Below are positions 1 through 22,069 of a stretch of 64,000 nucleotides of DNA, one piece after another. Each line of letters starts with the position of its first letter. Position 1 is the first letter of the stretch. The notes below the pieces were generated by a model. The model saw only the letters and a program-made list of their open reading frames with translations, searched no databases and was not told the DNA's origin. Made by a program: the position numbers and the translations under genes. The stretch lies in assembly GCF_054482595.1 (NCBI RefSeq), contig NZ_CM137008.1. One strand, given 5' to 3'.

Positions 1-2781
1 AATGTCAAAAATTTCCATACGTTGGCGCTTCTGCTGCCGCTCCAGTAGCTTCAGCTTTTCCTGGTTTTGCTTTTGTTCTTCGATCGATTGTGCCAGTCTG
101 GCTTCTCGCTTCAACGACTTGATTTGCATTTTGGTATCGCGTAATGCTTCTTCCGCCGCAAAGATCATGTCTTCAGCCCATTTTTCCAGCTTATCTCTTT
201 CCGCTTCAAAAAGGACATTGTTCTGCTCCAAAACTTCCGCAAGCCTGGCGTCAATTTGCCTGTTCTTGAGTAAGATCAAGTCATCAGGTAATGCATCTAA
301 ACTTGCCGAATTATCCAGCTTTTCGTTGGTTATTGCAGACAAGTTGAACAGACGTTTACAAGCCTCACCATCTACCACACGGCCGCTGTCAGTTTTCGCG
401 GTAAAGACTAAAAATTGCTGCCGGTTAAACGCATCAACAGTAAGCAAATTTAGTGTTAACCACCCTGATAGCCCTTTCAGCTGCTCAGCCACCGAGACTT
501 TCGTTGTGTGGTTACTGTAATCGAAGATGACTTCAGCTGTTTTCGTCTCCTGGGCTTTGGCTCCCTCAATGACGTACTCACCCAGCGGATGATTGATCCG
601 ATATGCAAAACTGTGGTGATCCTGCATTTGTAACGCACTATTTTGCCTGCCATCTTTGCGCAACAGCTGATACTGCCCCACAGGCAGTTCATTGACTGAC
701 TCACGTAAAGTAAAACGATGATGCTCATGATCAAAATCAGCATATTGTTTGAGCTGCTGACAGGTAACGGCCCAAAACCAACGACCGACTTTATCCAGAC
801 GCTCCCGAGCTTCATCAAGCCTTATTTTAAGGATATCGTGAATATCTTCATCAAAATGCTCAAGCAACTGTTCCTGCGTCTTCTGCATCTTGAGATTGAT
901 TTCATCTTCCAGCTCTTTCTGCAACCTTTCAAAAGCCAGCTCTATCTCCTCGGGGGTACGGCATGACTCATAAATTGACTGGATCCTTTTTTCAAAATCC
1001 ACTCCATTTTCTATGCTGCCAAGCACACTATCCGATGCACCAAACACGCCATCAAACAGGCTGAACTTTTCAGTTAAGAGTTCAAGAACTCGTTGATCGG
1101 CCTGGTTTCGCTGATTGAGGAAGTTAATAACAACCACATCAAACTTTTGCCCGTATCGGTGACAACGCCCAATACGCTGTTCAATGCGTTGTGGATTCCA
1201 GGGTAAATCGTAATTGATCAGTAGCGAACAAAATTGCAGGTTCACCCCTTCAGCTGCAGCTTCTGTAGCTATCATGATTTCAGCATGATCTTTGAAGTGG
1301 TCGATCAAAGCCGAGCGTTTATCAATTTGCGCCGACCCGGTAATACGAGAAGATCCCTGATATTCCTCGCGCCATTGCTGGTAGATCTTGTTTGCCTGCG
1401 GTGTATTGTTTGTGCCACTAAAGGTTACTACTTTCCCCTGGTAGCCATTGTTTTCCAGAAAATGTGCAAGATACTGTTGAGTTCGCATTGACTCCGTGAA
1501 GATGATGACTTTTTTTGCAGCCCCCATTTCGGCAAGCTGTGCAAAACCTTGCTCCAGGCCAGAAAGCAACTCTTTTGATTTGGTATCAGTGCCAATCTGT
1601 TCTGCTTTGACAATGAGTGATTCCAGCTCATTGATTTCTGCCTGAAGCGCGTCTGAATCGACAACTTTGCACTCGGTATCTAAAGCCACTGATTCGGCAT
1701 CTTCCACGATGTCATCTTCAAGATCGTCATCCATTATGATCTGTTGGATGATGTTCATATCATCTTCAACGATACCTTCCAGCTTTAACCTTTCTAAACG
1801 ACTCTTAAGGATCTGCAAGTTATTCAATACAGCTTTCGTACTTGAGGAAAGTAGCTTTCTGAGAATAAGCCCCGTCAGATGCCGGTGTCGTTTTGGTAAG
1901 GCATAGCTATCCTCACGTTCAAGCAATTTTTGTACGCGTTCATAAAGATCCTGCTCCTGTTCGCTCGGATAGAAAGGAATAGTGATCGCTTTACGTTCTG
2001 TATACTTGATGTACTCCAGCACATTCTTGCGTAAAGTTCGTTTGATAAAACGCGACAATCGCCCCTTCAACTCCGCAATATCGCTATCTGCCTGCATATA
2101 TTGCTTTCTGAACGCTTTAACTTCGCCGAAGGTATGTTCATCTATAAGCGTCGACATGCCATACAGTTCCATTAACGAATTCTGTAAAGGCGTTGCGGTC
2201 AGTAGTAATTTTTTCCGCCCATCAAGCGCACGCTTTAACGCTTGCCCCATTTTGTTACTTTCTCGATGAGCATTACGCAGTTTATGGGCTTCGTCGATAA
2301 CAACCAGATCCCACATTTCAGCCACCAATTTTTCTTCTAACCGAGCAGCATAGTGGTATGACATGATAGTGATCGATTTATTATTTAAGGGATTATGGAT
2401 CCCTTCTTTTTGAAGCTGGCTATACGTTTTCGCGTCCAACACCTGAGAAGGTAGATTGAACTTTTCCTGTAACTCGCTCGCCCATTGGCGACGCAGTGAA
2501 GCAGGACAAATGATCAACAGTTTACGTTTTCTTTCAGCCCACAACTGGCAAAGCACTAACCCCGCTTCAATGGTTTTACCTAAACCAACTTCATCGGCAA
2601 GCACAACACCTTTGCTTAGCGGATTTTCAATAGCAAAAAGAGCCGCCTCAATTTGATGAGGATTTAGATCTACGCTTGCATCAAACAGCGATTGAGACAG
2701 ACGGTCCACCCCATTGTTTGAATGGAGAATGGAAAGTTCATGCGCAAAATATTTCGCATGATAAGGTGTTGTACCAATCAT
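1..2781 (-). CDS. SNF2-family helicase (N-terminal ~927 aa; gene runs off window start)
   Basis: Minus-strand ORF from ATG at 2781 with an in-frame TGA just upstream (2830-2832), read through to position 1 without a stop. Translated motifs: LADEVGLGKT (Walker A), VIDEAHKLRN (DEAH box), DLPWNPQRIEQRIGRCHRYGQ (motif VI); K/E/Q-rich coiled-coil-like C-terminal part. Absent from the ORF track because no stop lies inside the window. Confidence 0.8.
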   Translation of the reverse strand, partial: MIGTTPYHAKYFAHELSILHSNNGVDRLSQSLFDASVDLNPHQIEAALFAIENPLSKGVVLADEVGLGKTIEAGLVLCQLWAERKRKLLIICPASLRRQWASELQEKFNLPSQVLDAKTYSQLQKEGIHNPLNNKSITIMSYHYAARLEEKLVAEMWDLVVIDEAHKLRNAHRESNKMGQALKRALDGRKKLLLTATPLQNSLMELYGMSTLIDEHTFGEVKAFRKQYMQADSDIAELKGRLSRFIKRTLRKNVLEYIKYTERKAITIPFYPSEQEQDLYERVQKLLEREDSYALPKRHRHLTGLILRKLLSSSTKAVLNNLQILKSRLERLKLEGIVEDDMNIIQQIIMDDDLEDDIVEDAESVALDTECKVVDSDALQAEINELESLIVKAEQIGTDTKSKELLSGLEQGFAQLAEMGAAKKVIIFTESMRTQQYLAHFLENNGYQGKVVTFSGTNNTPQANKIYQQWREEYQGSSRITGSAQIDKRSALIDHFKDHAEIMIATEAAAEGVNLQFCSLLINYDLPWNPQRIEQRIGRCHRYGQKFDVVVINFLNQRNQADQRVLELLTEKFSLFDGVFGASDSVLGSIENGVDFEKRIQSIYESCRTPEEIELAFERLQKELEDEINLKMQKTQEQLLEHFDEDIHDILKIRLDEARERLDKVGRWFWAVTCQQLKQYADFDHEHHRFTLRESVNELPVGQYQLLRKDGRQNSALQMQDHHSFAYRINHPLGEYVIEGAKAQETKTAEVIFDYSNHTTKVSVAEQLKGLSGWLTLNLLTVDAFNRQQFLVFTAKTDSGRVVDGEACKRLFNLSAITNEKLDNSASLDALPDDLILLKNRQIDARLAEVLEQNNVLFEAERDKLEKWAEDMIFAAEEALRDTKMQIKSLKREARLAQSIEEQKQNQEKLKLLERQQKRQRMEIFDI

Positions 2782-3170
2782 CTTTTCTCTCTCTTCGCTG
2801 TACTTTTGACGATAACCTGCTGAATTGAATCAAGATAGTAAAAGGATACGCCAATAGTGGTTGATCCTTGAAGTAAGGACATCTCCGGTTGCGGGCCTTT
2901 GACACATAAAATCAGCAATTTTACGCATCGTTTCATGGCTAAACAATGGCACATTAAGAATGCCACTCGCTAAATGCAATCTATTTCCTGAGCCATTAGA
3001 CCAAGGCAATGAAGTTTTATATCTACTTAATTTTCAGGATGATGAATGAACATCATTGATGGGAATGGGGCTTCCGAAGTTCTTAGATTATCAGCGTTAC
3101 ATACAAACAAAGTAGTGAAAACACAGGCACAAAAAAAGCCGCCCTTGAGCGACTCGATTTGCATACGATG

Positions 3171-3193
3171 TGGTGCGAAGGCCGGACTCGAAC
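3171..3193 (-). repeat. tRNA 3'-end-derived repeat (acceptor/T-arm fragment ending CCA), probable island att remnant
   Basis: Reverse complement reads GTTCGAGTCCGGCCTTCGCACCA, as I recall a 1-nt-deleted match to the 3' end of tRNA-Leu (leuX); no cloverleaf upstream, so a partial copy rather than a gene. Confidence 0.5.
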
Positions 3194-3433
3194 ATGTGAC
3201 TTAACCTCATGATTTAAAATTGTTAATAATAAACAATATCATCTTATACCAACACAGATACCAACACGAAAAATCACTGGTTTTCGGCATCGAACCAGGA
3301 CAATCAGCTCCTGATTGAGATACCGAGCTCTGTTACTCGTCATCTTCCTCGACAGGCTTCATTGCATCAAGTAGTACTCGCACCATCGCGATAGAACCAA
3401 TCCGGATAAAAGCATCTTCTCCATCTATATCTG

Positions 3434-3580
3434 TTAACTGATATCGCTCACTTGATGCCGGATAAGTGTGTCGATTTGCAGCTGTGTACTCTTTTGTACA
3501 GCCAGAATGTGGCTGACTGAGGTGGAGCAGATAATGTCCCCGTTGACCACTTCCGGACGGGAGGCTGTGATTTCAGACAT
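3434..3580 (-). CDS. small hypothetical protein (48 aa)
   Basis: ATG at 3580 preceded by AAGGA; MSEITASRPEVVNGDII...; no recognisable family; below the ORF-track size cut-off. Confidence 0.2.
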   Translation of the reverse strand: MSEITASRPEVVNGDIICSTSVSHILAVQKSTQLQIDTLIRHQVSDIS

Positions 3581-3599
3581 AATTGATATTCCTTTTTGC

Positions 3600-3636
3600 A
3601 GATAAATGAAAACGCCAGCCCTGTTCAGGCTGGCGT
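3600..3636 (-). terminator. Rho-independent terminator-like hairpin
   Basis: GCCAGCC / GGCTGGC stem with 7-nt loop, followed on the minus strand by GTTTTCATTT. Confidence 0.45.
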
Positions 3637-3881
3637 CAGTGGAATGAAGTATGGTGAGTAATATTTATCGGTTCTGGTGCAGAAGCTGCAGTTGGCGCAG
3701 GGTACGGATACCCTCCCTGGCCTGTTCGATACAGGGCAACAGTGCTGCCGAATCCGTTTTATCCTCATCGTTGTCAAAGATAATTCCCGATTCGCAGTCG
3801 ATATTGTCCTGCAGCCACACAATCAGAATATCCAGCGCCGTTTCTGTGGTTAATGATTTCATCCTGTGTCTTTTGTCCTGG

Positions 3882-4370
3882 TTACCAGTTGAAAGTGGGT
3901 AAATCCTGCAGACATTCAGCACCGGCATCCAGATGAATGAGACTGACGCCATAACGCCGGATGAGTGTGACAACCAGACGGCGGAACGTTCTGGACAGCC
4001 CCAGGCGTTTAAGCCGCAGAACCGGGTATGACCACGCATCGGTACGTAACAGATATCCGCTACCTGTGAAATGAATCCATTCTGATTCGCCGGTGTCATT
4101 CGTCTGATTTGACAGCGAGTACAACCAGGCATTGTCCGTTTCCGTGATATGTGCGGTACTGCAGCGTATGCCGGTAAGGGCCGCAGATGGTGGCGTGCGC
4201 TCTGCTGATGTCCGGTCAGATTCATCAACAACACGAAGGGAGTAACCGTTATCGCAGACCACGTTAATCAGTTCAGCGAGAGTAACACCATCGACGTCAA
4301 CGACAATGCGCCCCATGTTCAGTGCCTGCACGTTAATGCTGTCGGCTTCCAGCGTCAGGGCCAGTTTCAT
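3882..4370 (-). CDS. YeeW-like protein of CP4-type prophage remnants
   Basis: ORF-track product ...[38 protein letters not shown]...; sits immediately after the CbtA-like toxin as in K-12 CP4-44 (recollection). Start taken at the MKLALT ATG. Confidence 0.55.
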
Positions 4371-4744
4371 TGTTTCGCCCACGGATGTTTACCCAGGGTA
4401 ATGTTATTTACCGTTCTGTAATTGTCGCGGGCCATCAGGCCGGTTGCCCGGCGGGCCCGGAGGATATCAATACTGTTTATTAACTGAGAACGAGTACAGA
4501 CGCTGAATCCCGGCTGGTCGGTACGCACCAGTGCGTATTTTTCAACGAGAAAGTTCACCGCATCACACAGTGAAATGCCTGCCTCAATATGCTGCTCAAT
4601 CACACGTTCATCAGCGAACGGTGTGTCATTCAGTGTGAGGCCGTAATGCTGGTCCAGCAGTCGGGTGAGCAGTGTCTGCCAGATGGTGACGGGAGACTGG
4701 CAATGCGATGCCTCCCGTACGTGTGTATCGGGTAATGTGTTCAT
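4367..4744 (-). CDS. cbtA: CbtA/YeeV-family type IV toxin (cytoskeleton-targeting)
   Basis: Start set at internal ATG 4744 ([14 protein letters not shown]...); near-identical over most of its length to K-12 CbtA as I recall it (...[52 protein letters not shown]...). The ORF-track N-extension is rejected. Confidence 0.85.
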
Positions 4745-4833
4745 ACTGAAGATTTTCCTGATATGCAGAGATGAAAAATGGAAAAGTGGCGTGGTGAAAG
4801 CACCAGGCCGGAGAAGAAGGTTATTCTGGAGAG

Positions 4834-5202
4834 TTACTTTTTCGTTTCGGGCGTCGGATAAACAGCCATATAAACGTAGCCACAACTGCCGAGGGTGTCG
4901 GCTTCGCAGGTCAGCCTTTTTGCATACAGCGTGACGGTATGCTGATGGCGGGGATTCAGTTCACCGCTGGTGAGCATGAGTTCCAGTTGTTTCATCAGCA
5001 GCGGAAAGGCCTGGTCCAGATGGTACGCATCCGCGTCGCTGAACCGGCCTCTGATACCGGCGCGGTCTGCAAGGTAATGCAACCGGTTACCCTCCTGCAC
5101 CAGACGTGCCCCAAAACAGGGCGTCACGGTGCAGGGCAGTCCCCACCAGGTGCGGTCGTTATTGTCGTCGGGAAGCGTTGTCCCGGGGAGTGTGTCTGAC
5201 AC
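4834..5202 (-). CDS. cbeA: CbeA/YeeU-family antitoxin
   Basis: 122-aa ORF immediately upstream of the toxin; [50 protein letters not shown]... matches the YeeU/YfjZ/YafW family. Confidence 0.85.
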
Positions 5203-5281
5203 GATAAAATCCTCACAGAAAATTGGTTAAGAATGGTCCGGTGGTGGCGATAATTCTGCTCTTCTGAATGCCCTTCCAGAC

Positions 5282-5503
5282 TCAGTTCAGGGTGACGCTC
5301 ATCAGCCGGACATACGGACCAAAACTGTCCTTACGGCGTTCTGCAAACACAGCCAGCACACCGGGAATATCCTGTACTTCACGGCCGGTATATGTATCCG
5401 TGCTACCGTGCCAGCGGTATTTACCGGTACAGAACGGAAAAAGACGGGATGCAGGATGCTGACGGTGAATACGCATGGCTTCACCACGGGTGATGATTTT
5501 CAT
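5282..5503 (-). CDS. YeeT/YpjJ-like DUF987 protein
   Basis: 73 aa; MKIITRGEAMRIHRQHPASRLFPFCTGKYRWHGSTDTYTGREVQDIPGVLAVFAERR; conserved partner upstream of cbeA. Confidence 0.75.
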   Translation of the reverse strand: MKIITRGEAMRIHRQHPASRLFPFCTGKYRWHGSTDTYTGREVQDIPGVLAVFAERRKDSFGPYVRLMSVTLN

Positions 5504-5589
5504 GAGAATAGTCCTCCTGAATGTGAAAGTAAGAAACAGCTGAGAAAGAGAAACTGAAGTGATATGAAGGTGATTGTGACGGTGACGGG

Positions 5590-6066
5590 TTAAAGCAGAC
5601 CGTGTTCGGCAAAGGAGAATACCTGGCTGCCACCGACTATCAGATGGTCCGGCACCCGGATATCCACCAGGGCCAGCGCCTGTACCAGACGTTCAGTGAT
5701 AAGCCGGTCTGCCTTACTGGGGGTGACTTCACCGGACGGGTGATTGTGCGCCAGCACCACGGCAGCGGCATTGTGGTACAGGGCACGTTTAATCACCTCC
5801 CGGGGATGGACTTCTGTGCGGTTGATGGTGCCTGTGAAGAGGGTTTCACCCGCAATCAGCTGATTCTGGTTGTTCAGATACAGCACCCGGAACTCTTCCC
5901 GCTCCAGTCCTGCCATGTTCAGAATCAGCCATTCCCGTGCCGCATGCGTGGAGGTGAAGGCCACGCCGGGTTCATGAAGATGGCGGTCCAGGGTTTTCAG
6001 GGCCCGCTGAATGAGGCTGCGCTCGCCGGGCGTCATCTCTCCGGGCAGAAAGGAAAGCTGTTGCAT
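5590..6066 (-). CDS. RadC-like JAB-domain protein (YeeS/YkfG/YfjY family)
   Basis: 158 aa with the JAMM-type motif ...VVLAHNHPSGEVTPSKADRLITERL... Confidence 0.85.
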   Translation of the reverse strand: MQQLSFLPGEMTPGERSLIQRALKTLDRHLHEPGVAFTSTHAAREWLILNMAGLEREEFRVLYLNNQNQLIAGETLFTGTINRTEVHPREVIKRALYHNAAAVVLAHNHPSGEVTPSKADRLITERLVQALALVDIRVPDHLIVGGSQVFSFAEHGLL

Positions 6067-6080
6067 TGTTCCGGCCCCTT

Positions 6081-6566
6081 TCAGTCAATGATGCGCATAA
6101 TGGCGTTGCATTCCGGATGTTGCAGGGCGTAATCCCGCAACCGATAATAATGGACCGTCATGGCATAACACTCCGTACGACAGGCATGATGACTGTACGT
6201 CATCAGACAGGCAGCAATGCCGGCGGCTTCCGGGCTCATTTCAGCGCGGTTACCGTTCATGGCATTGAACAGTACCCAGGTTTCTCCATCATCTTCATCC
6301 GGTTCGGGCGCCATAAATGCGCCGCCGTTATTCAGGGTGTACAGATTCCAGATACCACCGCAGTAGTCTTCACACAGACGGTCCATCCAGCCGAAGACAC
6401 GGGGCTCCAGGGTCACCCACTGTGGAATGAGGCCAAAGTGCTGCGGCCAGAAGCTGATGCGCTGTTCATCAGGGACGGGAGTGGCAACCAGTTGAGACTG
6501 GTTATTCCCTGATGCAGTAGTTACGGAAACAGAAGGTGTGGTGGAATTATGCGAAGAGGTTGTCAT
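6081..6566 (-). CDS. antirestriction protein (KlcA/ArdB-like; YfjX/YafX family)
   Basis: Start set at ATG 6566 (MTTSSHNSTTPS...); FWPQHFGLIPQWVTLEPRVFGWMDRLCEDYCGGIWNLYTLNNGGAFMAPE... is typical of CP4-type antirestriction proteins. Confidence 0.8.
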   Translation of the reverse strand: MTTSSHNSTTPSVSVTTASGNNQSQLVATPVPDEQRISFWPQHFGLIPQWVTLEPRVFGWMDRLCEDYCGGIWNLYTLNNGGAFMAPEPDEDDGETWVLFNAMNGNRAEMSPEAAGIAACLMTYSHHACRTECYAMTVHYYRLRDYALQHPECNAIMRIID

Positions 6567-6657
6567 GAGATTATTCCTTATAAAAAGCAAATGAATGGAA
6601 GAATGCCTGGGGACTGGTACAGACGTGAGTCAGGGCTGCACTTTCAGGGAAACAGCA

Positions 6658-7476
6658 TCAGCGCATGCTCTCCAGCAGCGTTTCTGCCATCACCCACAAT
6701 GCGCGGTTGAGCTTAATATCGGTGTCGATGCTGTGAATGGCACGGGTGTGGATACGTTTTCCTCTGGCACTGCGACCGGAAATTCCGCCTTTCAGCATAT
6801 TCTCCTGGATGGTCTGATAAGCACTCCACAGGTCCTTACCGTAATCCTCCCGGCGTCGTGGTGTCAGAATGTCGGCAGTGGTGACTGGCTGATGTTTGTC
6901 ACCATAACGGTAAGTCAGTGCCGCCTGTGCCAGCGCCTGGCGTGCCGGTGGCGGCAGGACCAGCGACTGCATGGCATCACGCTTCTCCTCTATCCGGTCA
7001 AAAACCCCCACCACCTCGTAAGCCCCTTCAATAACTTTCTCCACCACATTTCCCCGGTGCGGAACACGCACTTCCCCCAGAGACTGACCACAGACGCATC
7101 CGTTCTGGCAGACGAACCTGAAGTAACCCGGCAGCATCTGGTAGCTGGAGGTACCGTCATGAGAGTTGAGCAGAATAATTTCAGGGACATGTTCTCCGTT
7201 TATCTCTCCGGCCCGCCGCAGACGCAGCATATGTTTGGTGTATCCCCGGCGGCCCGGGTCGCGCACACGGGTCTGGCAGGCGAAGAACGGCTGAAAGCCT
7301 TCCCGCTGCAGACTTTCCAGCACGGTGATGGTGGGGATATACGTATAGCGTTCACTGCGGGAGGTATGCCGGTCTTCCCCAAAAATACCGGGTACATAGT
7401 GCATCAGTTCTTCGTGTGTCAGCGGACGGTCACGGCGTATCTGATTCGCATAACCAAAACGACTGGCTAATTGCAT
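6658..7476 (-). CDS. DUF932-family protein (YfjQ/YafZ-like)
   Basis: 272-aa ORF; family assigned by recollection of CP4-6/CP4-57 gene content. Confidence 0.75.
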   Translation of the reverse strand: MQLASRFGYANQIRRDRPLTHEELMHYVPGIFGEDRHTSRSERYTYIPTITVLESLQREGFQPFFACQTRVRDPGRRGYTKHMLRLRRAGEINGEHVPEIILLNSHDGTSSYQMLPGYFRFVCQNGCVCGQSLGEVRVPHRGNVVEKVIEGAYEVVGVFDRIEEKRDAMQSLVLPPPARQALAQAALTYRYGDKHQPVTTADILTPRRREDYGKDLWSAYQTIQENMLKGGISGRSARGKRIHTRAIHSIDTDIKLNRALWVMAETLLESMR

Positions 7477-7565
7477 ACTTTGCTCCTTATGAATGAATTA
7501 GCGGTATAAACGAAAAGGCCGCGTCTCCCGGAGAAGACGCGGCCTGATGGATGAAATGAAGACGT

Positions 7566-7775
7566 TTATTGCCTGAGAATTCCCTCACTGGCGAGATACG
7601 AATTTAGCTGTTTTCCGGCATCAGGTTCAAAATTCCAGCACCGCCAGCGTAGCTGCCCTTCGGCATTGCGGATAACCAGCCGGAAATGCGTTCCCTGGTC
7701 ATCTTCAATAAGCACATTGCGGTAAGCTGTTGTGACGGCAACCGCCTGTTCGCGTGAGAAAGGGCCTTCGGGCAA
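7566..7775 (-). CDS. DUF905 protein (YkfF/YfjT-like)
   Basis: 69 aa; [54 protein letters not shown] resembles K-12 YkfF. Confidence 0.7.
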
Positions 7776-7804
7776 TAAAACAGGGTGGCAGTCCTACATA
7801 CCGG

Positions 7805-8482
7805 CTATTTTCCGATAAATTCAACGCTGGCGCCGGTGGCATTACCGTCAGCACCAACCGTGACGGTCACTTTGTCGTACGCACGGTCTTCAGGATTGAA
7901 TACTTCAAACTCAACCTTATTGCCTTTTACTTCGTAAGAGCCAAAATCAGCGGTTTCTGTTGTTTCCTCGTCATATTCCCGGGCGTATGCCTGCCGGGCA
8001 GCCTGCAGGACGGAATCTTTATCAATAGTGGTCGTCTGTTTCGGGGAAAAACCGGCAAGTGATGTGACAAATTTCGGACAGACCTTCAGCATATCACCGC
8101 GGGTGAATTCCATTCGTACACCAAATGCCTGTAAAACGGACACATCACGCTCTGCTATGGAGTGAACGGCTTTTTTGACCATTTCCGGCGCCTGTCCGAT
8201 TTCCACCTCAACAGCCCTGAATCCCGTCTGCTGATTACACATTTGTGATGTGGGGATCAGGTTACCGTTAATACTGATACGGCTGCCCAGGAGCGTCTGT
8301 ACACCATTCGGGCATCCCTGCATCAGGCCGGTAATACCAATCGTGCCATTTTTCAGCATTACCAGCGCCTGACCATCTTCCGTCATGGTCTGACACCAGC
8401 CGTTTTTGACAGCCCAGTTGCCGGCGGAGGCGGAGAATGATGCCACAGTGAACAGCAGGGGAAAAAGAGCTCTGGTATTCAT
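7805..8482 (-). CDS. secreted protein of unknown function (signal-peptide bearing)
   Basis: Start set at ATG 8482 (MNTRALFPLLFTVASFSASA...), a typical Sec signal; the longer ORF-track N-extension is rejected. Confidence 0.5.
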   Translation of the reverse strand: MNTRALFPLLFTVASFSASAGNWAVKNGWCQTMTEDGQALVMLKNGTIGITGLMQGCPNGVQTLLGSRISINGNLIPTSQMCNQQTGFRAVEVEIGQAPEMVKKAVHSIAERDVSVLQAFGVRMEFTRGDMLKVCPKFVTSLAGFSPKQTTTIDKDSVLQAARQAYAREYDEETTETADFGSYEVKGNKVEFEVFNPEDRAYDKVTVTVGADGNATGASVEFIGK

Positions 8483-8629
8483 GACTGACCTCTGAAATGA
8501 ACGTACGGTGTTATTGATAATGATGGAAGGTATGCAGTGACTGTTCAGGGAATGACGTAGCCGTATATTTAGTTTTCTGTTCAACATATTGTCTCCATAC
8601 CTGTCGGGACGGCTTTGGCAGGCCGGCAA

Positions 8630-9310
8630 TCACAGGTTAAAGGTGTTGATAAGTTTATGGATGAAAGAGAAATGTGGCAGGGCGGAGATAAAACGCTCTT
8701 CAGCGACCAGACTGTGGATGTGGCCTCTCCGTTCAAACCGTTCTGATGTCAGGCTGACTGATTTGATATCTGCCAGAGGAAAGACCTGCAGTTTTCCCTT
8801 CTGTAACGCGATCAGATACCAGCTACCGCTGTAATAAATGAGCCGGCAGGGCTCCAGTGACGGATACCATCGCTCAGTCATCAGAGAGATGTGGATACAC
8901 TGTCTTATTGCCAGGATGAGTTGCGAGAAACACTCGGGGAACGTTGCAGTGATATCCGGCGCCGGTAGCCAGATAAGGCAGGGAGAGGGCTCCTGGTTGT
9001 CGGTAAGACAGGTTATCAGTCGTCCGTTCCGGAGCGGAAGTATCCGTGCGATCCCGGTATTCTGTATAAAAGAAAGCATTTCAGGGATCGCACCTGGGCT
9101 GCTCTGTCGTCTGAGGCTGTACCTGCCATTTCTGTACTCTAAATCCAGGTGAACCAGACGCTGATGAAAATCGCGCTGTAAAGTACGTTCTGTAACGCCA
9201 AATTCATCTGACAGTGTTTTTAGTGACAGAGATTCTCCGGCCATCAGTCGGCTGATAATGAGTGATAAGCGAACCGCCAGGCGATCATGCCGGGAACGAT
9301 TATCAGACAT
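8630..9310 (-). CDS. WYL-domain transcriptional regulator (YfjR-like, HTH N-terminus)
   Basis: 226 aa; N-terminal HTH (LKTLSDEFGVTERTLQRDF), C-terminal region with YYSGSWYLIA, consistent with a WYL domain. Confidence 0.7.
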   Translation of the reverse strand: MSDNRSRHDRLAVRLSLIISRLMAGESLSLKTLSDEFGVTERTLQRDFHQRLVHLDLEYRNGRYSLRRQSSPGAIPEMLSFIQNTGIARILPLRNGRLITCLTDNQEPSPCLIWLPAPDITATFPECFSQLILAIRQCIHISLMTERWYPSLEPCRLIYYSGSWYLIALQKGKLQVFPLADIKSVSLTSERFERRGHIHSLVAEERFISALPHFSFIHKLINTFNL

Positions 9311-9512
9311 AGATGTGCACTCCGTAAGAAAACATCTTTTATTTCATGATGTTATTATGCATCATGATGTTGAAAGGATGTGTCGCATCCGGATAATCAG
9401 GAATAAAATGCAGCAGAAAAAATATTCTTTTAATTATCTGATTTTTAAGCATGATTTCATAAAAAGAAGAATGCTCGTTAATCCAGCGACACATCCTGTC
9501 GGCGTGAGTGTG

Positions 9513-10397
9513 TCAGAACAGACGCTCCCACAGTGTGATCAGCAGGTGGATAATGCGGTCCCGGGCTTTACGCAGAAGCTGTAACATCCAGGCCGGAAAA
9601 CTGAAACGGGCAACGGCGACGTCAAAACTTTTCCCGATGGTTTCACCAAAAGTCTGTTGTGCGTGTTTCTGGGCCTGTTCAGAGCGGTTTTCTCCCCGGA
9701 TATGTGAATACACCGCGCTGGTTGCCTGTGGTGGCAGTGCGTGGATCATCAGCGACACAAACGCCGGAAGGTTCCAGCCGACAGGTGCAGCAACGGAGAG
9801 TACCGGAAATGATGAAGGGAACAGGGTTGCCACCCGGGCTGTCACCGTCGCCAGTGAGAGCGCCTGCTGACGGGACGGGCATTTTTCTGTGGCATTCCAT
9901 TCTTCAGCAGGAAACACGCGATCGGCATGGCTGAGAACAAACAGAAAACGCGAGGGATCTGCGCCTTCATTCAGTAAAAACTGATGCATGGTAATGTCGG
10001 CGGCATACGCGCGTTCATCTGCCCGCAGGATCCAGATAATCAAATCCACTTCCGGCAGTAACTGACGGTAAAGCGCCCGGTATTCCTGATCATGTTGCGG
10101 CGTCTCTCCAATGCCGGGCAGATCGACCAGCGTCATTCTGCGTTCACCGATCTGCAGGGTAAGACGATGAGCCTGGCGGGTGCAGCCGTTCAGGGGATGT
10201 GTGGCACAGATATGGGACTGAAAAATAGCATTACACAGGCTACTTTTGCCGGTGCCGGATTTACCCATAATGCCAATCACGGGTTCGTAATGAATAACGC
10301 TGTGGAGATGTTCAAGAATTTTCTGACGAATTTCTTCAGGAAGAAACGTCAGATATGATTTCACTTGTGCGGAGAGGGAAGAATGGCTGAATGACAT
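9513..10397 (-). CDS. GTPase of YfjP/YkfA family (50S-ribosome-binding GTPase-like)
   Basis: 294 aa with P-loop GIMGKSGTGKSS and G3 DLPGIGE. Confidence 0.8.
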   Translation of the reverse strand: MSFSHSSLSAQVKSYLTFLPEEIRQKILEHLHSVIHYEPVIGIMGKSGTGKSSLCNAIFQSHICATHPLNGCTRQAHRLTLQIGERRMTLVDLPGIGETPQHDQEYRALYRQLLPEVDLIIWILRADERAYAADITMHQFLLNEGADPSRFLFVLSHADRVFPAEEWNATEKCPSRQQALSLATVTARVATLFPSSFPVLSVAAPVGWNLPAFVSLMIHALPPQATSAVYSHIRGENRSEQAQKHAQQTFGETIGKSFDVAVARFSFPAWMLQLLRKARDRIIHLLITLWERLF

Positions 10398-10581
10398 ACC
10401 GGTATCCTGTTGATTTCACTGAACCGGATCACACTAATCCGGTTTATCATTCAGGTAATATGGACGTGAAAAATGATGGAATGTCTGAATTACGGATATT
10501 ATTGTTAAAGTGTAATGGAGTATGAAGTGAGTTTTTCAGAACGGGAACTAATGACATACTGCGGTTTCAGGAGATGAGAGG

Positions 10582-11712
10582 ATGACCGGACGTAAAAACA
10601 AATGCGTCAGAAAAAATTGTAACAATCAGGTTTTCTCAGTAAAAATGGCAGTGGAGAAAAGACTGTGCAGAAAACATTATGAGAGGTTTTGTGAGCTCAA
10701 AAAAAGAAGAGAGCAAAATCCTGTTCACAGATTAAATGAAGCATTGCCAAGAAAGATAAAAGGACCCAAAAGTAAGAAAAAATTAGTAAAAGAAAGAGAA
10801 ATCATTAACAGCAGGAAGAAACATAAACAGGAGCAGGGACCATCGCTGGTTGAACTTAATAAAAAAGTTCGTGAGATACTGAAAACTCCGGCATGGAGAA
10901 CGCTGGAAACGAGAATTCGAAGAAACGGTATCACATTTAAATCAAAAGCAGAGTTAGATGTACTTTCTGAACTTTATGCAATTTATTCATGGGTTTCATA
11001 TTGCAAACGGAGCGATAATTATTCTGTGTGGTTTTTGAATTGTCCGGATGTAAATATAAATCTTCATGTGTGCGAATGCAGGTCTTCTGAAAGCGATTGT
11101 TATCTACCATCCCGTTTTATTATTCTTCCAGCTCCATTAAGGCAAAAAGTAAAAAGAAAATACCCTGCTAATTCGTCTGGAGTGTCAGGATATAGTGATT
11201 CAAAAAGTCTTTATAAGACTGTTTTGTCTGTTTGTGGTGGGAAAAGAGAAACCGAATTGTTCTTTTATTCACTGCCAGTAAAGACTAATCATCATCCTTA
11301 CTGGATTAAAAGTGGTGTGGTTAAAAGATTTCCGCCTATTTTTGGCTTGTTGTTTTATGAACAGGAAAGGTTAACAGGAGGTGTTTTTCGTTATGTGTTG
11401 ATAAAGTTTTATAATGCTTTTAAGGAGAATTTGTTTTTTGTTGAGATTATCTCGTGCTGTTTTCTTGTTGAGTTTTTTCATGATATTGATTCATTTTTTA
11501 TAAATCAACGATTAAGTAAGTTGGAAATTTTTATAGATAAGTGGAGGGAGGGTAAAGAAATCTGGATAAAAGCATATCTACAACTGATACATAATGCATT
11601 GGGAATAACTGAAACAGAAAAACTCGTCAATCTATATAATTCATTTTTTACTGATAAAGTGGTTCTCTGGGATGAATCAGTAAAAAAAGTTAAGTGGATT
11701 TATGAGAAATAG
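10582..11712 (+). CDS. hypothetical protein, Cys-rich basic N-terminus, strongly AT-rich gene
   Basis: 376-aa ORF with GGA RBS-like purines upstream; N-terminal C-x5-C...C-x-K-H-x4-C cluster and K/R-rich stretch; no recognised domain; divergent from the GTPase gene. Confidence 0.5.
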   Translation: MTGRKNKCVRKNCNNQVFSVKMAVEKRLCRKHYERFCELKKRREQNPVHRLNEALPRKIKGPKSKKKLVKEREIINSRKKHKQEQGPSLVELNKKVREILKTPAWRTLETRIRRNGITFKSKAELDVLSELYAIYSWVSYCKRSDNYSVWFLNCPDVNINLHVCECRSSESDCYLPSRFIILPAPLRQKVKRKYPANSSGVSGYSDSKSLYKTVLSVCGGKRETELFFYSLPVKTNHHPYWIKSGVVKRFPPIFGLLFYEQERLTGGVFRYVLIKFYNAFKENLFFVEIISCCFLVEFFHDIDSFFINQRLSKLEIFIDKWREGKEIWIKAYLQLIHNALGITETEKLVNLYNSFFTDKVVLWDESVKKVKWIYEK

Positions 11713-12252
11713 CACCATTTAACTGAAAGCTACCATAACGTCTTTTTGATCACACGCATGATAATGCGTCTCATTTAAATTTCGTTTTTTGGGTCATGGA
11801 AATTTTCCGAACATCAGTGATAATGAGGGTTTTGTTGTTTTTGTTTCTGCAATGTTTGAGGGCTGTTCCTGGAGACGATTCGTTGCTTGTGAGCAAGTGG
11901 TGGTCCGCTTTACTGGACGAGTTTTGCATTTGTTGAGTGGTGAAATGGAAGTAAAAAGAGCCCCTTTCTGGCAATGACTGAAAAAGTCAGTAGCGTGTAA
12001 CAGTAAAAACTAACATAAAGTGATTATCGTATGATTATGACAATAACTTATAACTTTTATGAAAAGAACAACAGAAACTACGAAGCCATAACAGATTCCT
12101 GAGACCATGTTTTCTGAGGTAGAGAAAATAATTCAAGAGTAAACCAGTTTGTTTTTTGGTCAGTAAAGAACCATGCCTGATGTGAAAACGGGTAATCAAC
12201 ATTCAGTCTGCATGGATGTTTGGAAGAGTTGAGAATGTCGGTATGATACTAT

Positions 12253-12360
12253 ATACACGTATTTTTACTAAGCATTTCAGTAAGTGTTATACACGTATTT
12301 TTACTAAGCATTTCAGTAAGTGTTATACACGTATTTTCATAAACACTTCTACAAGTGTTT
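12253..12360. repeat. tandem direct repeats (2 perfect 36-bp units plus a degenerate third)
   Basis: ATACACGTATTTTTACTAAGCATTTCAGTAAGTGTT at 12253-12288 and 12289-12324, then a diverged copy beginning ATACACGTATTTTCATAAACACTT. Confidence 0.85.
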
Positions 12361-13228
12361 TCGTTAAGCATTGCTATACACATCCAGTTTAGTAAATCTT
12401 TACGTTAACTAAATCAGTTTAATGCTGCTGTAAAACCTTTCTGCTTCAGCAATCAATCTGCTATTCGATTTTACTGATGTTACGTTTAACCTTTCCTGAT
12501 ATTTCGAGTTTCGACGTTAGCATGAGAAAAGTATCTTTACGCTAAATCAACCCGAACTTTCCTGAAGTAATCTGACGTTCTTTTCGATGTGCTTACGACG
12601 ATTCTGTTAAACGACTTTCTGGATGTTTTGATAACAATCAGATTTAGGCATTAACGATTCCTGACGTTTTTCTTTTCCGTGTAAGGTCATTGTTTTCGTC
12701 ATGATGTGACTCTTCTTGCATTGCGAAAGTGTGATGAACGGTTTTGGTGTTTTGATTCAGATGAAGTTTACGTTATCGATGGTTAATCGTTTTTATGGTG
12801 CGTAGTGAAACGTAACGCTTTCAGGAAGGGAAAATCGATTCTGATGGGGATGATCGTGTAACGGCGTTATCTGTAAACAGGTTTTAAACATGTCATTCGC
12901 ATCCGTGATTAAGTTGTGTGATTAAGCTGTAGGTTTTGGCGTTGTTGTTGATTTGCATTACCAGGAAGCGTTCTGGTTGCGTTTCTGGTGTTTTGTTTGA
13001 ATGTTCTGTGGATCCTTTTCCCTTCTGACTTTTCTCGTTGTCCATGTCGTTTTTAAATCCATTCGCTGTTCTTGAGTGTTTTTACCCTGTGTGTAGGATT
13101 ATCTTTTTGTTCCGTTTCAATCACTCTTAATCAGAAAGTTGTAGCATTGCTCAATGCCGGATGCCGTAAAGTTTTACCGCGGTGATTAATGATGTGAAGT
13201 CAATCCAAATCAACGGAGATCTCTCATC

Positions 13229-13960
13229 ATGAATCAACCAATACACAATGCTTACTGGTTATCCCGTTTTGAAAGTATTCTCAACGGTGCCCTGGCGCAA
13301 CACCGTGCCGTCTCGTTAATCCGGGTGGATTTACGTTTCCCTGAGTATATGCCTGCCACCATCATGGATACCGATTTAGATTCAGCGGTGATTTCTCGTT
13401 TTTTTGCATCCCTGAAAGCAAAAATTCAGGCTTACCAGCGGAAAAAACGACGTGCCAACAAGCGTGTGCGTGCAACCACTCTGCGTTATTTCTGGTGTCG
13501 GGAGTTTGGCAAGGAAAAAGGCAGGAAACATTATCACGTGATATTACTGCTCAACAAAGATACCTGGTGCTCGCCAGGGGATTTCACCGTTCCTTCTTCG
13601 CTGGCGACGCTGATCCAACTGGCATGGTGCAGTGCTCTGCATCTTGAGCCCTGGCAGGGTAATGGACTGGTTCACTTTTCCAGGCGGACGCCTTTCCGTA
13701 AACCGACATCATCTGATGCTCGCCCTTCTTCCGATGATACGCCTGTGCCTGGTGGATGTTCTGATACCCGGAAGGATTCTGACAAAAAATCTGGTGGATC
13801 CGCTGTTCTCTGGGTCAAGCGTGGTGATGTGGAAGCGATGCAGAAAGCCATGGAGAGAGCCCGTTATCTCGTGAAGTATGAGACGAAGCAGCATGACGGT
13901 TCTGGTCAACGTAATTATGGTTGCAGTCGTGGGCTGGGGCGTCTACTGGATGGCAGGTGA
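13229..13960 (+). CDS. YagK/YfjJ-family protein (inovirus Gp2-like family of CP4 islands)
   Basis: 243 aa; MNQPIHNAYWLSRFESILNGAL...HYHVILLLNKD; paralogous to the ORF at 19172-19738. Confidence 0.7.
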   Translation: MNQPIHNAYWLSRFESILNGALAQHRAVSLIRVDLRFPEYMPATIMDTDLDSAVISRFFASLKAKIQAYQRKKRRANKRVRATTLRYFWCREFGKEKGRKHYHVILLLNKDTWCSPGDFTVPSSLATLIQLAWCSALHLEPWQGNGLVHFSRRTPFRKPTSSDARPSSDDTPVPGGCSDTRKDSDKKSGGSAVLWVKRGDVEAMQKAMERARYLVKYETKQHDGSGQRNYGCSRGLGRLLDGR

Positions 13961-14287
13961 ACCCTGTAAAACAGCATCCGATGCCTGAGTTTATGCCAAC
14001 GCCCTTAGCTCGCTTTCTGAAAAGTCGTCCTGAAGTAATGCAATGGATTGCCATCTACTTCCGTTCGTGACACATAAGTCGAAAAACCTTTGGTTGTTCT
14101 GGTTATTTGCATTTACTGCCATTCATAGAAATGAACAGATCGATTGGTAGGACTCAAATGTTATAGCGTCTCTCTTCTCATAGTCTGCTTTGTACCAGAC
14201 GCGGAATCCCCTAATGCTGGTGTACAGGTTCTGACTCATTTCCTCCCCCACTTTCATCCCGTTATACTGTGAAAAAAGGAGGTAGGC

Positions 14288-15166
14288 GTGAAACTGAAAA
14301 TGCAGGATTTGAGGCTGTTTAATATTGTGTTCGAGAGCGATCCTGGCTGGATACTGGATTTCTCTAACCGCACCTTGTCTGCTTTTTTCGATGAAGAATT
14401 GAACATTGATATTGATGATGAACGTTATCAGAAAGAGGGGACGTCAAAAGCCAAACGAGTTAGATGCTTGCTGAAACAGGTTGATCGTGAGACCGCTCTG
14501 CGGGTTCTTGGTGCGCTCTGGCAGTATAAAACGGAATCCATGCCTGAACAGGCTGAACAAAGCCGTAATGACTATCTTGCACTGATTTCCCGCTTAGAAA
14601 ACGCTGACACCGATGAAGCCAAAGGCGTTAAGCCTGTCCAGGCATGGCATGGTGTTGACTGGCATTCACTTATCGCTGAAATGAACGAGATGAAATCTCT
14701 GCCGCCACATCCACGTGGTTTTCGGTTTGAAGCCTGGCTTGCTGAACTGTTCAGTATCTTTAAGCTTGCTCCCCGTTCGTCTTTCCGAAATACAGGCGAA
14801 CAGATTGACGGAAGTTTCCGACTGAATGATGAATTTTACCTGATGGAGGCAAAGTGGCATCAGAAAAGAACGTCGGCTGCCGACCTCCATGTATTTGAAG
14901 GAAAGCTCAGTACCAAGGCAACCTGGACACGCGGTGTTTTTATCAGTTGGATGGGCTTTACGCCTGAAGGCCTGACGGCTTTTGGTAAAGGGAAGCGGGT
15001 TATCTGTGTCAGTGGTTATGATCTTTACCACTCACTGAATCATAGGATCCCTTTACCCGACCTTCTGGATGCTAAAACCCGGCACGCGGCTGAAACGGGA
15101 GAGCCCTATGCTGAGTTCGACCGACTATATGCACTGAAAGACAAACAGTTCGGCACGCTGAAATAA
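14288..15166 (+). CDS. Mrr-like (PD-(D/E)xK) restriction-endonuclease-domain protein with unrelated N-terminal domain
   Basis: GTG 14288 preceded by AGGAGG (alternative ATG 14300). C-terminal GEQIDGSF...[10 protein letters not shown]...[11 protein letters not shown] parallels the Mrr catalytic region (GDGGIDG...VQAKRW...RGVFITTSGFT) as I recall it. Confidence 0.6.
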
Positions 15167-15180
15167 CGGGTTGGGAAGCG

Positions 15181-15794
15181 ATGACCTGCTCCCCGTTGTT
15201 TCACACAGAATCGTGTACAGGGTCGAAGTTCTGGCTCAATGTGCTGACTGAACTGAAAAACCGCGGTCTGAACGATATCCTCATCACCTGTGTAGATAGC
15301 CTGAAAGGCTTTCCAGATGCCATCAACACAGTATATCCGGAGGCCAGCATCCAGTTATGCATCGTGCATATGGTGCGCAACAGCCTGCGCTTCGTGTCAT
15401 GGAAGGACTACAAAGCCGTCACTCGCGACCTGAAAGAGATTTAATCAGGCACCCACGGAAGAGACAGGCTAGCAAGCACTAGATAAGTCGGAGCTGGCAG
15501 GCTAACTGACCGAATCTTACCACGTTCTTCGCTTATCTGACGGACATTCGCAAAGTGCGCTATACGACGAATGCCATCGAGTCACTAAACAGTGTGATCC
15601 GCCATGCGATCAAAAAGCGTAAAGTGTTCCCGACAGACGACTCGGTGAAAAAAGTGGTGTGGCTGGCAATCCAGTCTGCGTCCCAGAAATGGACGGTGTC
15701 GTTGAAGGACAGGTGTATGGCAATGAGCCGCTTTATTATCGAGTTCGGTGACTGCCTGTCACTTCTGAAAAAAGGCATTTACACAGAATCCTAA
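15181..15794 (+). pseudogene. IS256-family (mutator-type) transposase, fragmented
   Basis: Two ORF pieces (15181-15444, 15555-15794) with [18 protein letters not shown] and TTNAIESLNSVIR; N-terminal part missing. Confidence 0.65.
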
Positions 15795-15914
15795 ACAGGT
15801 TCCGACATTCCCCACTCATACTAAACACCTTGTCACTTGACGCAGGGCTGAACATTTTACAACAACGGTATACCAATATGATATTGGTTTACTAAATTTT
15901 TTGGGAATCCCTCA

Positions 15915-16794
15915 GGGAATTTCTCCCTATACTTCCAGACATCTGTTATCATTTAACCCATTACTGATCCGCTGCCGCATATATACCTGCGGCGAGCGAT
16001 AACTTAGAACTATGCTGCATTGTAATGTTCGATTGCTACTGCATGGTTATGCAATGCCGTCATTAACATCTGGCTTGGGCATGAACACGATGTAGTCACG
16101 CTTTATCGTTTTCACGAAGCTCTCTGCTATTCTGTTACTCTCCGGACTCCGCACCGCCGTGTTCTTCGATTCAAGTCCCAACATCCGAGCGAACTGGCGT
16201 GTTTCATTAGCCCGGTAGCATGAACCATTATCTGTCAGCCACTCCACTGGAGACGCCGGAAGCTCGTTGCCGAAGCGGCGTTCCACCGCTCCTGGCATGA
16301 CGTCCTGTACTGTTTCACTGTTGAAGCCGCCGGTAGTGACCGCCCAGTGCATCACCCCGGCAATAAGGGAGCGTGCGCTATCCACTTTTTGCACGTCCAT
16401 ATTCAACGGCTTCTTTAATGAGTTCATTTTCCATCGTTTTGTTCCGGGCAGGCGCTGGCGTTCTTTAATCTGCCTTATGGCAGCAGCAAGTTCAGAGGCA
16501 GGAACGATCTGTTCCCCAGCAGTCACCGCAGTAAGACTTCCCTCCTGGTATTGCTTGCGCCAGAGAAGTAACTGGCTGCTACACCATGTTGCCGGGCAAC
16601 GAGGGAGACCGTCATTCCTGGTTCAAAGCTCTTCTGAACATTAGCGATCTTTTCCTGTGCAGTATGCCGTCTGAGTTTCTCCGGTCCTGAGGCATCAATC
16701 ATCTGTTTTCCAATGACCAGTCTAAAAACTAATATTAAGATTATCACTTATTTAAGTGATATTGGTTGACTGGAGATTCAGGGGGCTAGCCTAT
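15915..16794 (-). mobile_element. IS2 remnant with internal deletion (~880 bp vs 1331 bp)
   Basis: IRR-like end ...CCCTATACTTCCAGACATCTGTTATCATTTAACCC near 15915 and IRL GGAGATTCAGGGGGCTAGCCTA at 16773-16794; InsC-like N-terminus (16523-16747) and truncated InsD-like ORF (16047-16526). Confidence 0.75.
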
Positions 16795-16922
16795 CCGGGA
16801 AAGTTCACTCACTTTGAATGAAGTAAATATTAAGTATCACATTTTGTGATGTAGCCATTATTTTTATAAAAAATCACCTGATAGGATTTATCATAAGTTA
16901 ATGATAAGCAGAGTATTGATAG

Positions 16923-17363: not shown

Positions 17364-17631
17364 TACATCTAATCGGTTGAATGTTGCTGTAATGCTCGCT
17401 TTTGATGCTTATATGGCAGCGTTACCGTTTATTGTTTTAGTTACAAATTGGTCGTCATGGACATAACCTGAAATTATAACTATCATCGGGTCTTTCAAGT
17501 TGCTTATGCATATAACGCCAGGGAGGAAAACGAGAGTTAAAAAATTGAACTGTTCTCATAGAGACTGTAATTTAAATTGTGTAATTGCCGGTTTTTGATA
17601 TGTTCACTCCAACAACGTAGACAAGTAGATT

Positions 17632-20558: not shown

Positions 20559-20626
20559 AAGCTCAGTTCAGCAGATTCACCCGCATTTGCCCAACATTCA
20601 TAAATCTCACAAAGGACATTCTGACC

Positions 20627-21691: not shown

Positions 21692-21709
21692 ATCAGCGCA
21701 GTTGTGCAG

Positions 21710-22055: not shown

Positions 22056-22069
22056 GTCGCCACGGTGTT

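What the first reader, a model, noticed from the sequence alone, without database searches (positions are those of the whole stretch)
3171..3193. Partial tRNA-Leu-like 3' end marks a likely genomic-island junction
A 23-nt sequence ending in CCA matches the acceptor/T-arm end of leuX-type tRNA-Leu with one deletion, and no cloverleaf precedes it. This is the classic signature of the distal att repeat of a tRNA-integrated island. Its minus orientation places the CP4-like block to the right as the island body and the helicase gene outside it, hinting at tandemly arranged elements.
Basis: partly seen in the sequence, partly recalled or inferred. Interest (0 to 1): 0.45.

Follow-up and report, generated by a model that had tools for sequence, protein, structure and literature searches.

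The report
Far-end scar of leuX island
This 23-base piece of a leucine tRNA gene is the far-end attachment scar left when a 77.5-kb mobile genomic island inserted into the E. coli leuX tRNA gene; it is real, but it is a well-described kind of feature.

Summary
Window 3171-3193 (minus strand) reads GTTCGAGTCCGGCCTTCGCACCA, the last 24 nt of tRNA-Leu(CAA) leuX with one G missing, and no tRNA body precedes it. The window is E. coli SM107 chromosome. The intact leuX lies 77.5 kb to the right, 16.7 kb beyond the window end, in the same orientation, with a P4-type integrase beside it. Joining leuX in silico to the DNA left of the fragment gives a 685-nt sequence that is 100% identical in at least 16 complete E. 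coli genomes (36 carry it at 80% coverage or more). The 77,485 bp in between are therefore a precise insertion at the leuX 3' end. The fragment is the attR core. Two tandem arm-type repeats (GTGTTGGTAT) flank it, and the same motif occurs three times between leuX and the integrase gene, as in phage P4 attP. A tandem second element is not shown in this genome, because no second integrase or core was found. True tandem islands do sit at this core in strains W5-6 and PCN061. This is the known PAI II536 / UTI89 leuX-island architecture, so it is ordinary and already known.

The parts
3171..3193 (-). attR core: the last 24 nt of leuX (T-loop 3' half, T-stem, acceptor stem, CCA) with one G deleted
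   Evidence: Searches give the sequence identity. One search shows 0 of 100 shuffles match. One search shows the empty-site junction falls exactly here.
3126..3170 (-). Chromosomal leuX 3' flank displaced by the island. It holds a terminator-like hairpin (3136-3155) followed by a T-run. It lies outside the island.
   Evidence: One search detects the terminator-like site. In some searches this flank directly follows an intact leuX in empty-site genomes (e.g. strain Santai).
3246..3267 (-). Two tandem arm-type repeats GTGTTGGTAT, 52 nt inside the island from the core. They are putative integrase arm-binding sites of attR.
   Evidence: Five of the nine TGTTGGTA copies in 130 kb lie at the two island ends. 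Searches show the same layout in P4 attP, with two tandem arm repeats 54 nt from the core.
3194..64000 (.). Body of the leuX island as far as the window reaches. The island continues 16.7 kb past the window end to the integrase and leuX, at window-equivalent positions 79227-80763.
   Evidence: Searches give the annotation of NZ_CP130667.1. One search shows the precise insertion relative to 36 genomes.
3333..10397 (-). CP4-like distal block: HTH pseudogene, DUF957, DUF5983, CbtA, CbeA, DUF987, JAB/RadC-like, antirestriction, DUF932, DUF905, WYL/HTH regulator, GTPase
   Evidence: One search gives the annotation. One search gives the Pfam hits (Antirestrict, MMR_HSR1, WYL).
20591..20824 (+). AlpA-family small DNA-binding protein, the likely excisionase or directionality factor of the island
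   Evidence: Phage_AlpA, E 2e-10.
1..2781 (-). 3' part of the DrmD-like SNF2 helicase gene. It is the first gene of a type III-like restriction-modification and defence block that lies outside the island.
   Evidence: DrmD, E 3e-198. One search shows it adjacent to an intact leuX in strain Santai.
61025..64000 (+). dndB, dndC and the start of dndD: phosphorothioation cargo of the island
   Evidence: One search gives the annotation. One search finds the cluster in 206 of 5426 E. coli genomes.

Best explanation
The fragment is the core of attR, the right-end attachment site of a 77,485-bp genomic island that a P4-type tyrosine integrase inserted into the 3' end of the leuX tRNA-Leu(CAA) gene. 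Recombination took place between the island's attP core and the identical 3' end of leuX. This rebuilt a complete leuX at the integrase-proximal end (attL), now followed by an island-borne terminator. It pushed a copy of the core, still joined to the original leuX terminator and downstream chromosome, to the far end of the island (attR). Shown here: the duplicated core in direct orientation, the adjacent integrase, the arm-type repeats on both ends, and the exact empty site in other genomes. Inferred: that integrase WP_001218930.1 with the AlpA-like protein could still excise the island, and that the missing G is either a mutation of this non-functional copy or a polymorphism carried in the island's core.
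For: The window is identical to E. coli SM107 NZ_CP130667.1. leuX lies at record 4405810-4405894 (minus strand) with a 421-aa integrase beside it. The integrase has Arm-DNA-bind_3, Phage_int_M and Phage_integrase domains and is 59.5% identical to P4 Int over 97% of its length. A synthetic junction of ahr, leuX and the flank left of the fragment up to the SNF2 gene is matched at 80% coverage or more in 36 complete E. coli genomes. All 30 listed rows cover the full 685 nt at 97.8-100% identity, 16 of them at 100% (annotation of one). The motif TGTTGGTA occurs 9 times in 130 kb. Two copies lie 52 nt from the attR core and three lie between leuX and the integrase start codon. This mirrors the annotated P4 attP: a 20-bp core GAGTCCGGCCTTCGGCACCA, two distal arm repeats and three proximal ones. 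An AlpA-family gene lies in the island. The same integrase and dnd cargo form a compact island of about 39 kb in W5-6 and a related island in PCN061, both ending in the same arm and core. A published primer for the right end of PAI II536, PaiII_53rev CGAAGGCCGGACTCGAACA, is identical to window 3176-3194 (PMC3202238).
Against: The attR core is imperfect, with one G missing, and nothing here shows that it is still a substrate for the integrase. No circular or excised form of this particular island was observed. The empty-site genomes could be never-occupied rather than excised. The island is heavily IS-ridden, so it may be a fixed fossil.
Confidence: 0.95

Rival explanations
1. The fragment marks a junction between two integrative elements arranged in tandem in this genome. 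On this view the SNF2 / type III R-M / SBD-HNH block to the left is itself a second, older leuX island.
For: The block is variable between strains. UTI89 carries a different gene there, and 13TMH22 and 2012C-4606 have deletions. It consists of defence genes and ends at a truncated nanS. True tandems exist at this same core in W5-6 and PCN061. In 13TMH22 and 2012C-4606 the core is followed by an island-type terminator flank.
Against: In SM107 and in empty-site genomes the block has no integrase. No further leuX-derived repeat is found in the 33 kb to the left, even with 4 errors in 24 nt or by local alignment. The flank next to the core carries a terminator positioned as the leuX terminator.
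Confidence: 0.2
2. The site is a dead fossil. The single-G deletion, or decay of the island, has made attR non-recombinogenic, so it is only a historical scar and the island is fixed.
For: The core differs from attL by one deletion. The island carries many IS elements and pseudogenes, including a roughly 38-kb IS-rich insert absent from W5-6. The deletion is shared by nine other attR copies in four flank contexts, which suggests age.
Against: The integrase and the AlpA-like gene are intact. Arm-type repeats are intact at both ends. SM107 and the empty-site strain Santai share identical flanking protein accessions, which suggests recent gain or loss. PAI II536, with the same right end, excises and re-integrates at leuX experimentally (PMC3202238).
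Confidence: 0.3
3. The fragment is the remnant of a duplicated and decayed tRNA-Leu gene, unrelated to site-specific integration.
For: It is a tRNA fragment followed by a terminator.
Against: Similarity to leuX stops abruptly at the 5' edge of the 24-nt block. No tRNA model matches. The block coincides with the P4 att core. The empty-site junction falls exactly at it.
Confidence: 0.01
4. The 23-mer is a chance match.
For: None.
Against: 0 of 100 shuffles match with up to 3 mismatches. The orientation, the integrase and the empty site all agree.
Confidence: 0.001

Closest known systems
Satellite phage P4 attachment system (attP / leuX attB, P4 Int)
   Same: It uses the same target gene. The core overlaps the annotated 20-bp P4 core GAGTCCGGCCTTCGGCACCA. 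The integrase is 59.5% identical to P4 Int. The layout is the same, with two tandem arm repeats about 52-54 nt distal of the core and three proximal ones reaching the integrase start.
   Different: The arm-repeat motif is TGTTGGTA rather than P4's GGGGGCA. The identity block is 24 nt rather than 20. The element is a 77.5-kb non-phage island. Its attR core lacks one G.
PAI II536 of uropathogenic E. coli 536 and the PAI-leuX islands of UTI89, RS218 and UM146
   Same: These are leuX-integrated islands with a P4-like integrase, flanking direct repeats and a CP4-like distal block. The UTI89 right end aligns with this one, including the single-G core and the terminator flank. The PAI II536 right-end primer equals window 3176-3194. 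PAI II536 excises, transfers and re-integrates at leuX (PMC3202238). The islands are catalogued in PMC7545054.
   Different: The cargo differs. Here it is dndBCDE-dptFGH, a phosphoethanolamine transferase, autotransporters and metabolic genes, rather than hly, pap or cnf1.
dnd (DNA phosphorothioation) islands at leuX in E. coli B7A, Salmonella Saintpaul SARA23 and Enterobacter sp. 638 (dndDB)
   Same: The dnd cluster is carried on an island integrated at leuX (PMC2663466). The same integrase, dpt and dnd module is present in 206 of 5426 complete E. coli genomes.
   Different: The SM107 copy is enlarged to 77.5 kb by an IS-rich insert and has the CP4-like block at its distal end.
E. coli K-12 KpLE2 / intB element at leuX
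   Same: It occupies the same chromosomal slot between leuX and nanS-nanM-nanC-fim. A P4-type second integrase directly after the attR core in W5-6 and PCN061 has P4-like arms.
   Different: In SM107 that element is absent. Only a truncated nanS and a defence block remain between attR and fim. The K-12 sequence itself was not examined here, so this comparison rests on general knowledge.

Membership tests
tRNA-integrated genomic island with P4-type integrase (att sites) | A direct repeat equal to the 3' end of an intact tRNA gene, in the same orientation, bounding the element | tested here: met
   The repeat is 23 of 24 nt. Both copies are on the minus strand, 77,485 bp apart, and are the only two copies in 130 kb.
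tRNA-integrated genomic island with P4-type integrase (att sites) | A tyrosine integrase of the P4 subfamily encoded next to the intact tRNA gene | tested here: met
   It has Arm-DNA-bind_3, Phage_int_M and Phage_integrase domains. It is 59.5% identical to P4 Int, E 9e-162. It lies 186 nt from leuX.
tRNA-integrated genomic island with P4-type integrase (att sites) | Related genomes carry the unoccupied site with the junction exactly at the repeat | tested here: met
   36 genomes match the synthetic empty site at 80% coverage or more. The 30 listed rows all cover the full 685 nt at 97.8-100% identity.
tRNA-integrated genomic island with P4-type integrase (att sites) | Arm-type integrase-binding repeats on both sides of the core | tested here: met
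   TGTTGGTA occurs twice at attR and three times at attL, 5 of 9 copies in 130 kb. The geometry matches annotated P4 attP. Binding itself was not tested.
tRNA-integrated genomic island with P4-type integrase (att sites) | A recombination directionality factor (AlpA/Xis type) | tested here: met
   Phage_AlpA domain protein at window 20591-20824, E 2e-10. Its function is inferred.
tRNA-integrated genomic island with P4-type integrase (att sites) | Excision to a circular intermediate that restores attB | not testable with these tools
   This has been shown experimentally only for the related PAI II536 (PMC3202238).
Tandem array of leuX islands in this genome | A second integrase gene or a third copy of the leuX core beyond attR | tested here: not met
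   No integrase lies between attR and nanS' in SM107 or Santai. No further core copy appears above the shuffle background. The feature is met in other strains, W5-6 and PCN061.
CP4-type cryptic-prophage-like gene block | The conserved gene set GTPase(YeeP-like) ... antirestriction, RadC/JAB, DUF987, CbeA, CbtA, DUF5983, DUF957 | tested here: met
   RefSeq annotation is and Pfam checks are. The block is multi-copy in E. coli, up to 9 places per genome.

The most novel reading that the evidence does not exclude
The one-G-short attR core may not be random decay. It could be a maintained polymorphism of this island family. It could lower excision and so stabilise the island. Alternatively it could show that strand exchange is confined to the last few bases (GCACCA) of leuX. 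On either view the site would stay usable as a secondary attB for stacking further P4-type islands, as seen in W5-6 and PCN061.
Probability: 0.12. Interest if true: 0.3.

Novelty: already known. Interest (0 to 1): 0.1.

Why it matters
Its value is mainly for annotation. It fixes the exact right boundary of a 77.5-kb leuX island (record 4328325-4405809). That separates the island cargo (dnd/dpt phosphorothioation system, phosphoethanolamine transferase, autotransporters, CP4-like toxin-antitoxin block) from the neighbouring chromosomal defence block. It adds no new biology. tRNA 3'-end direct repeats at the distal ends of leuX islands have been described since the work on PAI II536.

Tried and rejected
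1. I searched for a third, degenerate leuX core that would mark a tandem element. Fuzzy matching (up to 4 errors in 24 nt, 6 in 30) and local alignment over 130 kb found nothing above the shuffle background.
2. I read the DNA around the truncated second integrase inside the island (L003 5850-6520). No tRNA fragment is visible there.
3. I scanned one genome per species (genome contigs) for the island arm plus core with one or two G. The single hit is an E. coli-like contig in a mis-binned 'Streptococcus' MAG, again with one G, so it says nothing about other species.
4. A short-query search of phages with the leuX 3' end did not list P4 among the rows shown. P4 attP was reached through the integrase protein search instead.
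5. I tried to decide whether the missing G is island-borne or a later mutation. Nine other attR copies in four flank contexts have one G. PCN061 and six other genomes have GG in the same context as W5-6. The question is unresolved.
6. I tried to confirm that the neighbouring SBD-HNH nuclease is EcoWI. The paper gives no accession in its main text. Only size (33.2 against 33.4 kDa) and domain make-up agree.

Full report
**Observation.** Window 3171-3193 read on the minus strand is GTTCGAGTCCGGCCTTCGCACCA. The window is 100% identical to the chromosome of E. coli SM107 (NZ_CP130667.1), with window position 1 at record position 4325132. That genome's leuX gene, tRNA-Leu with anticodon CAA, ends in GTTCGAGTCCGGCCTTCGGCACCA. 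ARAGORN finds no tRNA in the window. Rfam finds no tRNA-model match near the site even at E<=10. Similarity to leuX ends abruptly at the 5' edge of the block. None of 100 dinucleotide-preserving shuffles gives a match with up to 3 mismatches. In the 130 kb around the site, only this copy and leuX itself score above the shuffle background.

**Where the cognate tRNA is.** The intact leuX lies at record 4405810-4405894 on the minus strand. This is the same orientation as the fragment and 77,485 bp to its right, or 16.7 kb beyond the window end. A 421-aa tyrosine recombinase is encoded 186 nt downstream of it. That protein has the Arm-DNA-bind_3, Phage_int_M and Phage_integrase domains. It is 59.5% identical to phage P4 integrase over 97% of its length.

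**Decisive test.**
- I built the predicted unoccupied site in silico: 200 nt upstream of leuX, then leuX, then the reverse complement of window 2771-3170.
- 36 of 5426 complete E. coli genomes match this 685-nt sequence at 80% coverage or more. All 30 rows listed cover its full length at 97.8-100% identity, 16 of them at 100%. In each, tRNA-Leu, ahr and the SNF2 gene are annotated under the match.
- In strain Santai, leuX is followed directly by the SNF2 gene, a type III-like methyltransferase, a type III-like restriction helicase, an SBD-HNH nuclease, a truncated nanS, nanM, nanC and fimB. No integrase is present.
- The 77.5 kb between leuX and the fragment are therefore a precise insertion at the leuX 3' end. 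The fragment is the distal copy of the attachment core (attR).
- 96 genomes share the SNF2 | core | CP4-like junction.

**Anatomy of the site.**
- Left of the core, which is downstream in tRNA orientation, is a terminator-like hairpin with a T-run at 3136-3155. In empty-site genomes this stretch directly follows leuX. It is the chromosomal leuX terminator, displaced by the island.
- At attL, leuX is instead followed by a different, island-borne hairpin and T-run.
- Inside the island, 52 nt from the core, are two tandem copies of GTGTTGGTAT (3246-3267).
- The core motif TGTTGGTA occurs nine times in 130 kb. Five of those copies are at the island ends: two at attR and three between leuX and the integrase start codon.
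- The annotated P4 attP has the same plan: a 20-bp core GAGTCCGGCCTTCGGCACCA, two tandem arm repeats 54 nt distal of it, and three proximal repeats reaching the int start. The repeat motif differs (GGGGGCA in P4).
- The island also encodes an AlpA-family protein at window 20591-20824.
- All sequence components of a P4-type integration and excision module are therefore present. Whether they still work was not tested.

**The missing G.** The one-G core is not private to SM107.
- It is present in STEC313, A3024, S1-IND-02-A and E24377A, which have the same flank.
- It is present in UTI89, 13TMH22 and 2012C-4606, which have other flanks.
- It is present in W5-6 and in an E. coli-like contig of a mis-binned MAG.
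- Seven genomes, including PCN061, carry the GG form with the same island arm. PCN061 has the same integrase, the same dnd cargo and the same kind of left flank as W5-6.
- I cannot tell whether the deletion travels with the island core or arose once and spread.

**The 'tandem' hint.**
- In SM107 the DNA beyond attR holds a DrmD-like SNF2 helicase (E 3e-198), a type III methyltransferase, a type III restriction enzyme, a small hypothetical gene, an SBD-HNH nuclease, an HNH fragment and a truncated nanS.
- That stretch has no integrase and no further leuX-derived repeat. A second integrative element is therefore not demonstrated in this genome.
- The slot is variable between strains.
- In W5-6 and PCN061 the same attR core is followed immediately by a second P4-type integrase, whose upstream arm is nearly identical to P4's. 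In W5-6 that integrase comes with HamA and a DEAD/DEAH helicase, the two-gene pairing of a Hachiman defence system. Stacking of islands at this core does occur in the species.

**The island itself.**
- Read from leuX, it runs through the integrase, a phosphoethanolamine transferase, an outer-membrane protein, a truncated second integrase, dptFGH and dndEDCB.
- It then continues through a long IS-rich stretch with autotransporters, dcuC, a malic enzyme, ugpB and sodC, and ends in the CP4-like block and attR.
- W5-6 carries a version of about 39 kb without the IS-rich stretch. In SM107 that stretch appears to interrupt a ProQ/FinO-like gene.

**Comparison with what is known.**
- This is the architecture described for PAI II536. 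That island is integrated at leuX, has a specific P4-like integrase and flanking direct repeats, and has been shown to excise, transfer and re-integrate at leuX (PMC3202238). A primer from that paper for the island's right end, PaiII_53rev CGAAGGCCGGACTCGAACA, is identical to window 3176-3194.
- leuX islands of UTI89, RS218, UM146, S88 and others are catalogued in PMC7545054.
- dnd islands at leuX in E. coli B7A and Salmonella were described in dndDB (PMC2663466).
- Nothing about the fragment departs from this pattern.

**Verdict.** The feature is a textbook attR of a P4-type leuX island. It is already known and of low interest beyond fixing the island boundary.

Noticed in passing
window 61025-64000 (dndB, dndC, start of dndD); L002 45731 to L003 5877 (dndE, dptFGH, beyond the window); L001 21832-22704 (left of the window): The island carries an apparently intact dndBCDE-dptFGH phosphorothioation system. 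About 10 kb outside attR sits an intact 290-aa SBD-HNH 'phosphorothioated DNA-binding restriction endonuclease'. It is 33.2 kDa, with an SBD related to ScoMcrA and an HNH_2 domain. The E. coli SBD-HNH enzyme EcoWI (33.4 kDa) cuts GpsAAC/GpsTTC and fully restricts plasmids carrying the E. coli B7A dnd genes (PMC7461809). If this gene is an EcoWI orthologue, the genome holds a modification and a nuclease aimed at that modification. dnd+ strain CH4793 also has the gene intact. In dnd+ W5-6 the region is broken by IS elements. Identity to EcoWI was not verified.
   Followed up: partly
L013 15226-16700 (W5-6); L017 45970-46550 (PCN061): In these strains the same attR core is followed directly by a second P4-type integrase with P4-like arm repeats. 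In W5-6 it comes with HamA and a DEAD/DEAH helicase, a Hachiman-like pair. In PCN061 the integrase is truncated by IS elements. These are true tandem leuX islands.
   Followed up: partly
L009 about 5960-6000 and L010 about 5960-6000: In 13TMH22 and 2012C-4606 the attR core carries an 8-nt unit CTTCGCAC three times in tandem. A different, island-type terminator flank follows, next to a truncated SBD-HNH gene. The origin of the triplication is unexplained.
   Followed up: no
L017 45970-46015 compared with L013 16654-16697: The attR core is polymorphic. Seven genomes, including PCN061, have the full GG core with the same island arm, whereas all other copies inspected have one G.
   Followed up: partly
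window about 22019-60216: About 38 kb of IS-rich DNA (autotransporters, dcuC, malic enzyme, fumarase-like gene, porin, ugpB, sodC, many transposase fragments) lies between two fragments of a ProQ/FinO-like gene. The W5-6 version of the island (about 39 kb) lacks it. This is inferred from annotation only.
   Followed up: partly
L001 26749-29869 (left of the window): The type III-like methyltransferase gene of the defence block outside the island is split into 2760-nt and 309-nt ORFs in SM107. It is a single 3120-nt gene in strain Santai. The partner restriction helicase is intact in both.
   Followed up: no
L003 6101-6266 (beyond the window end): A truncated, frameshifted second integrase lies between the phosphoethanolamine-transferase module and dptF. 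This suggests the island is itself a fusion of two elements. No tRNA fragment is visible next to it.
   Followed up: partly
L016 1-260: A contig assigned to 'uncultured Streptococcus sp. UMGS1794' carries the E. coli attR arm, core and SNF2-side flank. It is probably a binning contaminant.
   Followed up: no
window 3333-3580: Two short pseudogene fragments lie just inside attR: an HTH regulator missing its N-terminus and a hypothetical or DUF4942-like protein missing its C-terminus. They are conserved in all the genomes examined.
   Followed up: no
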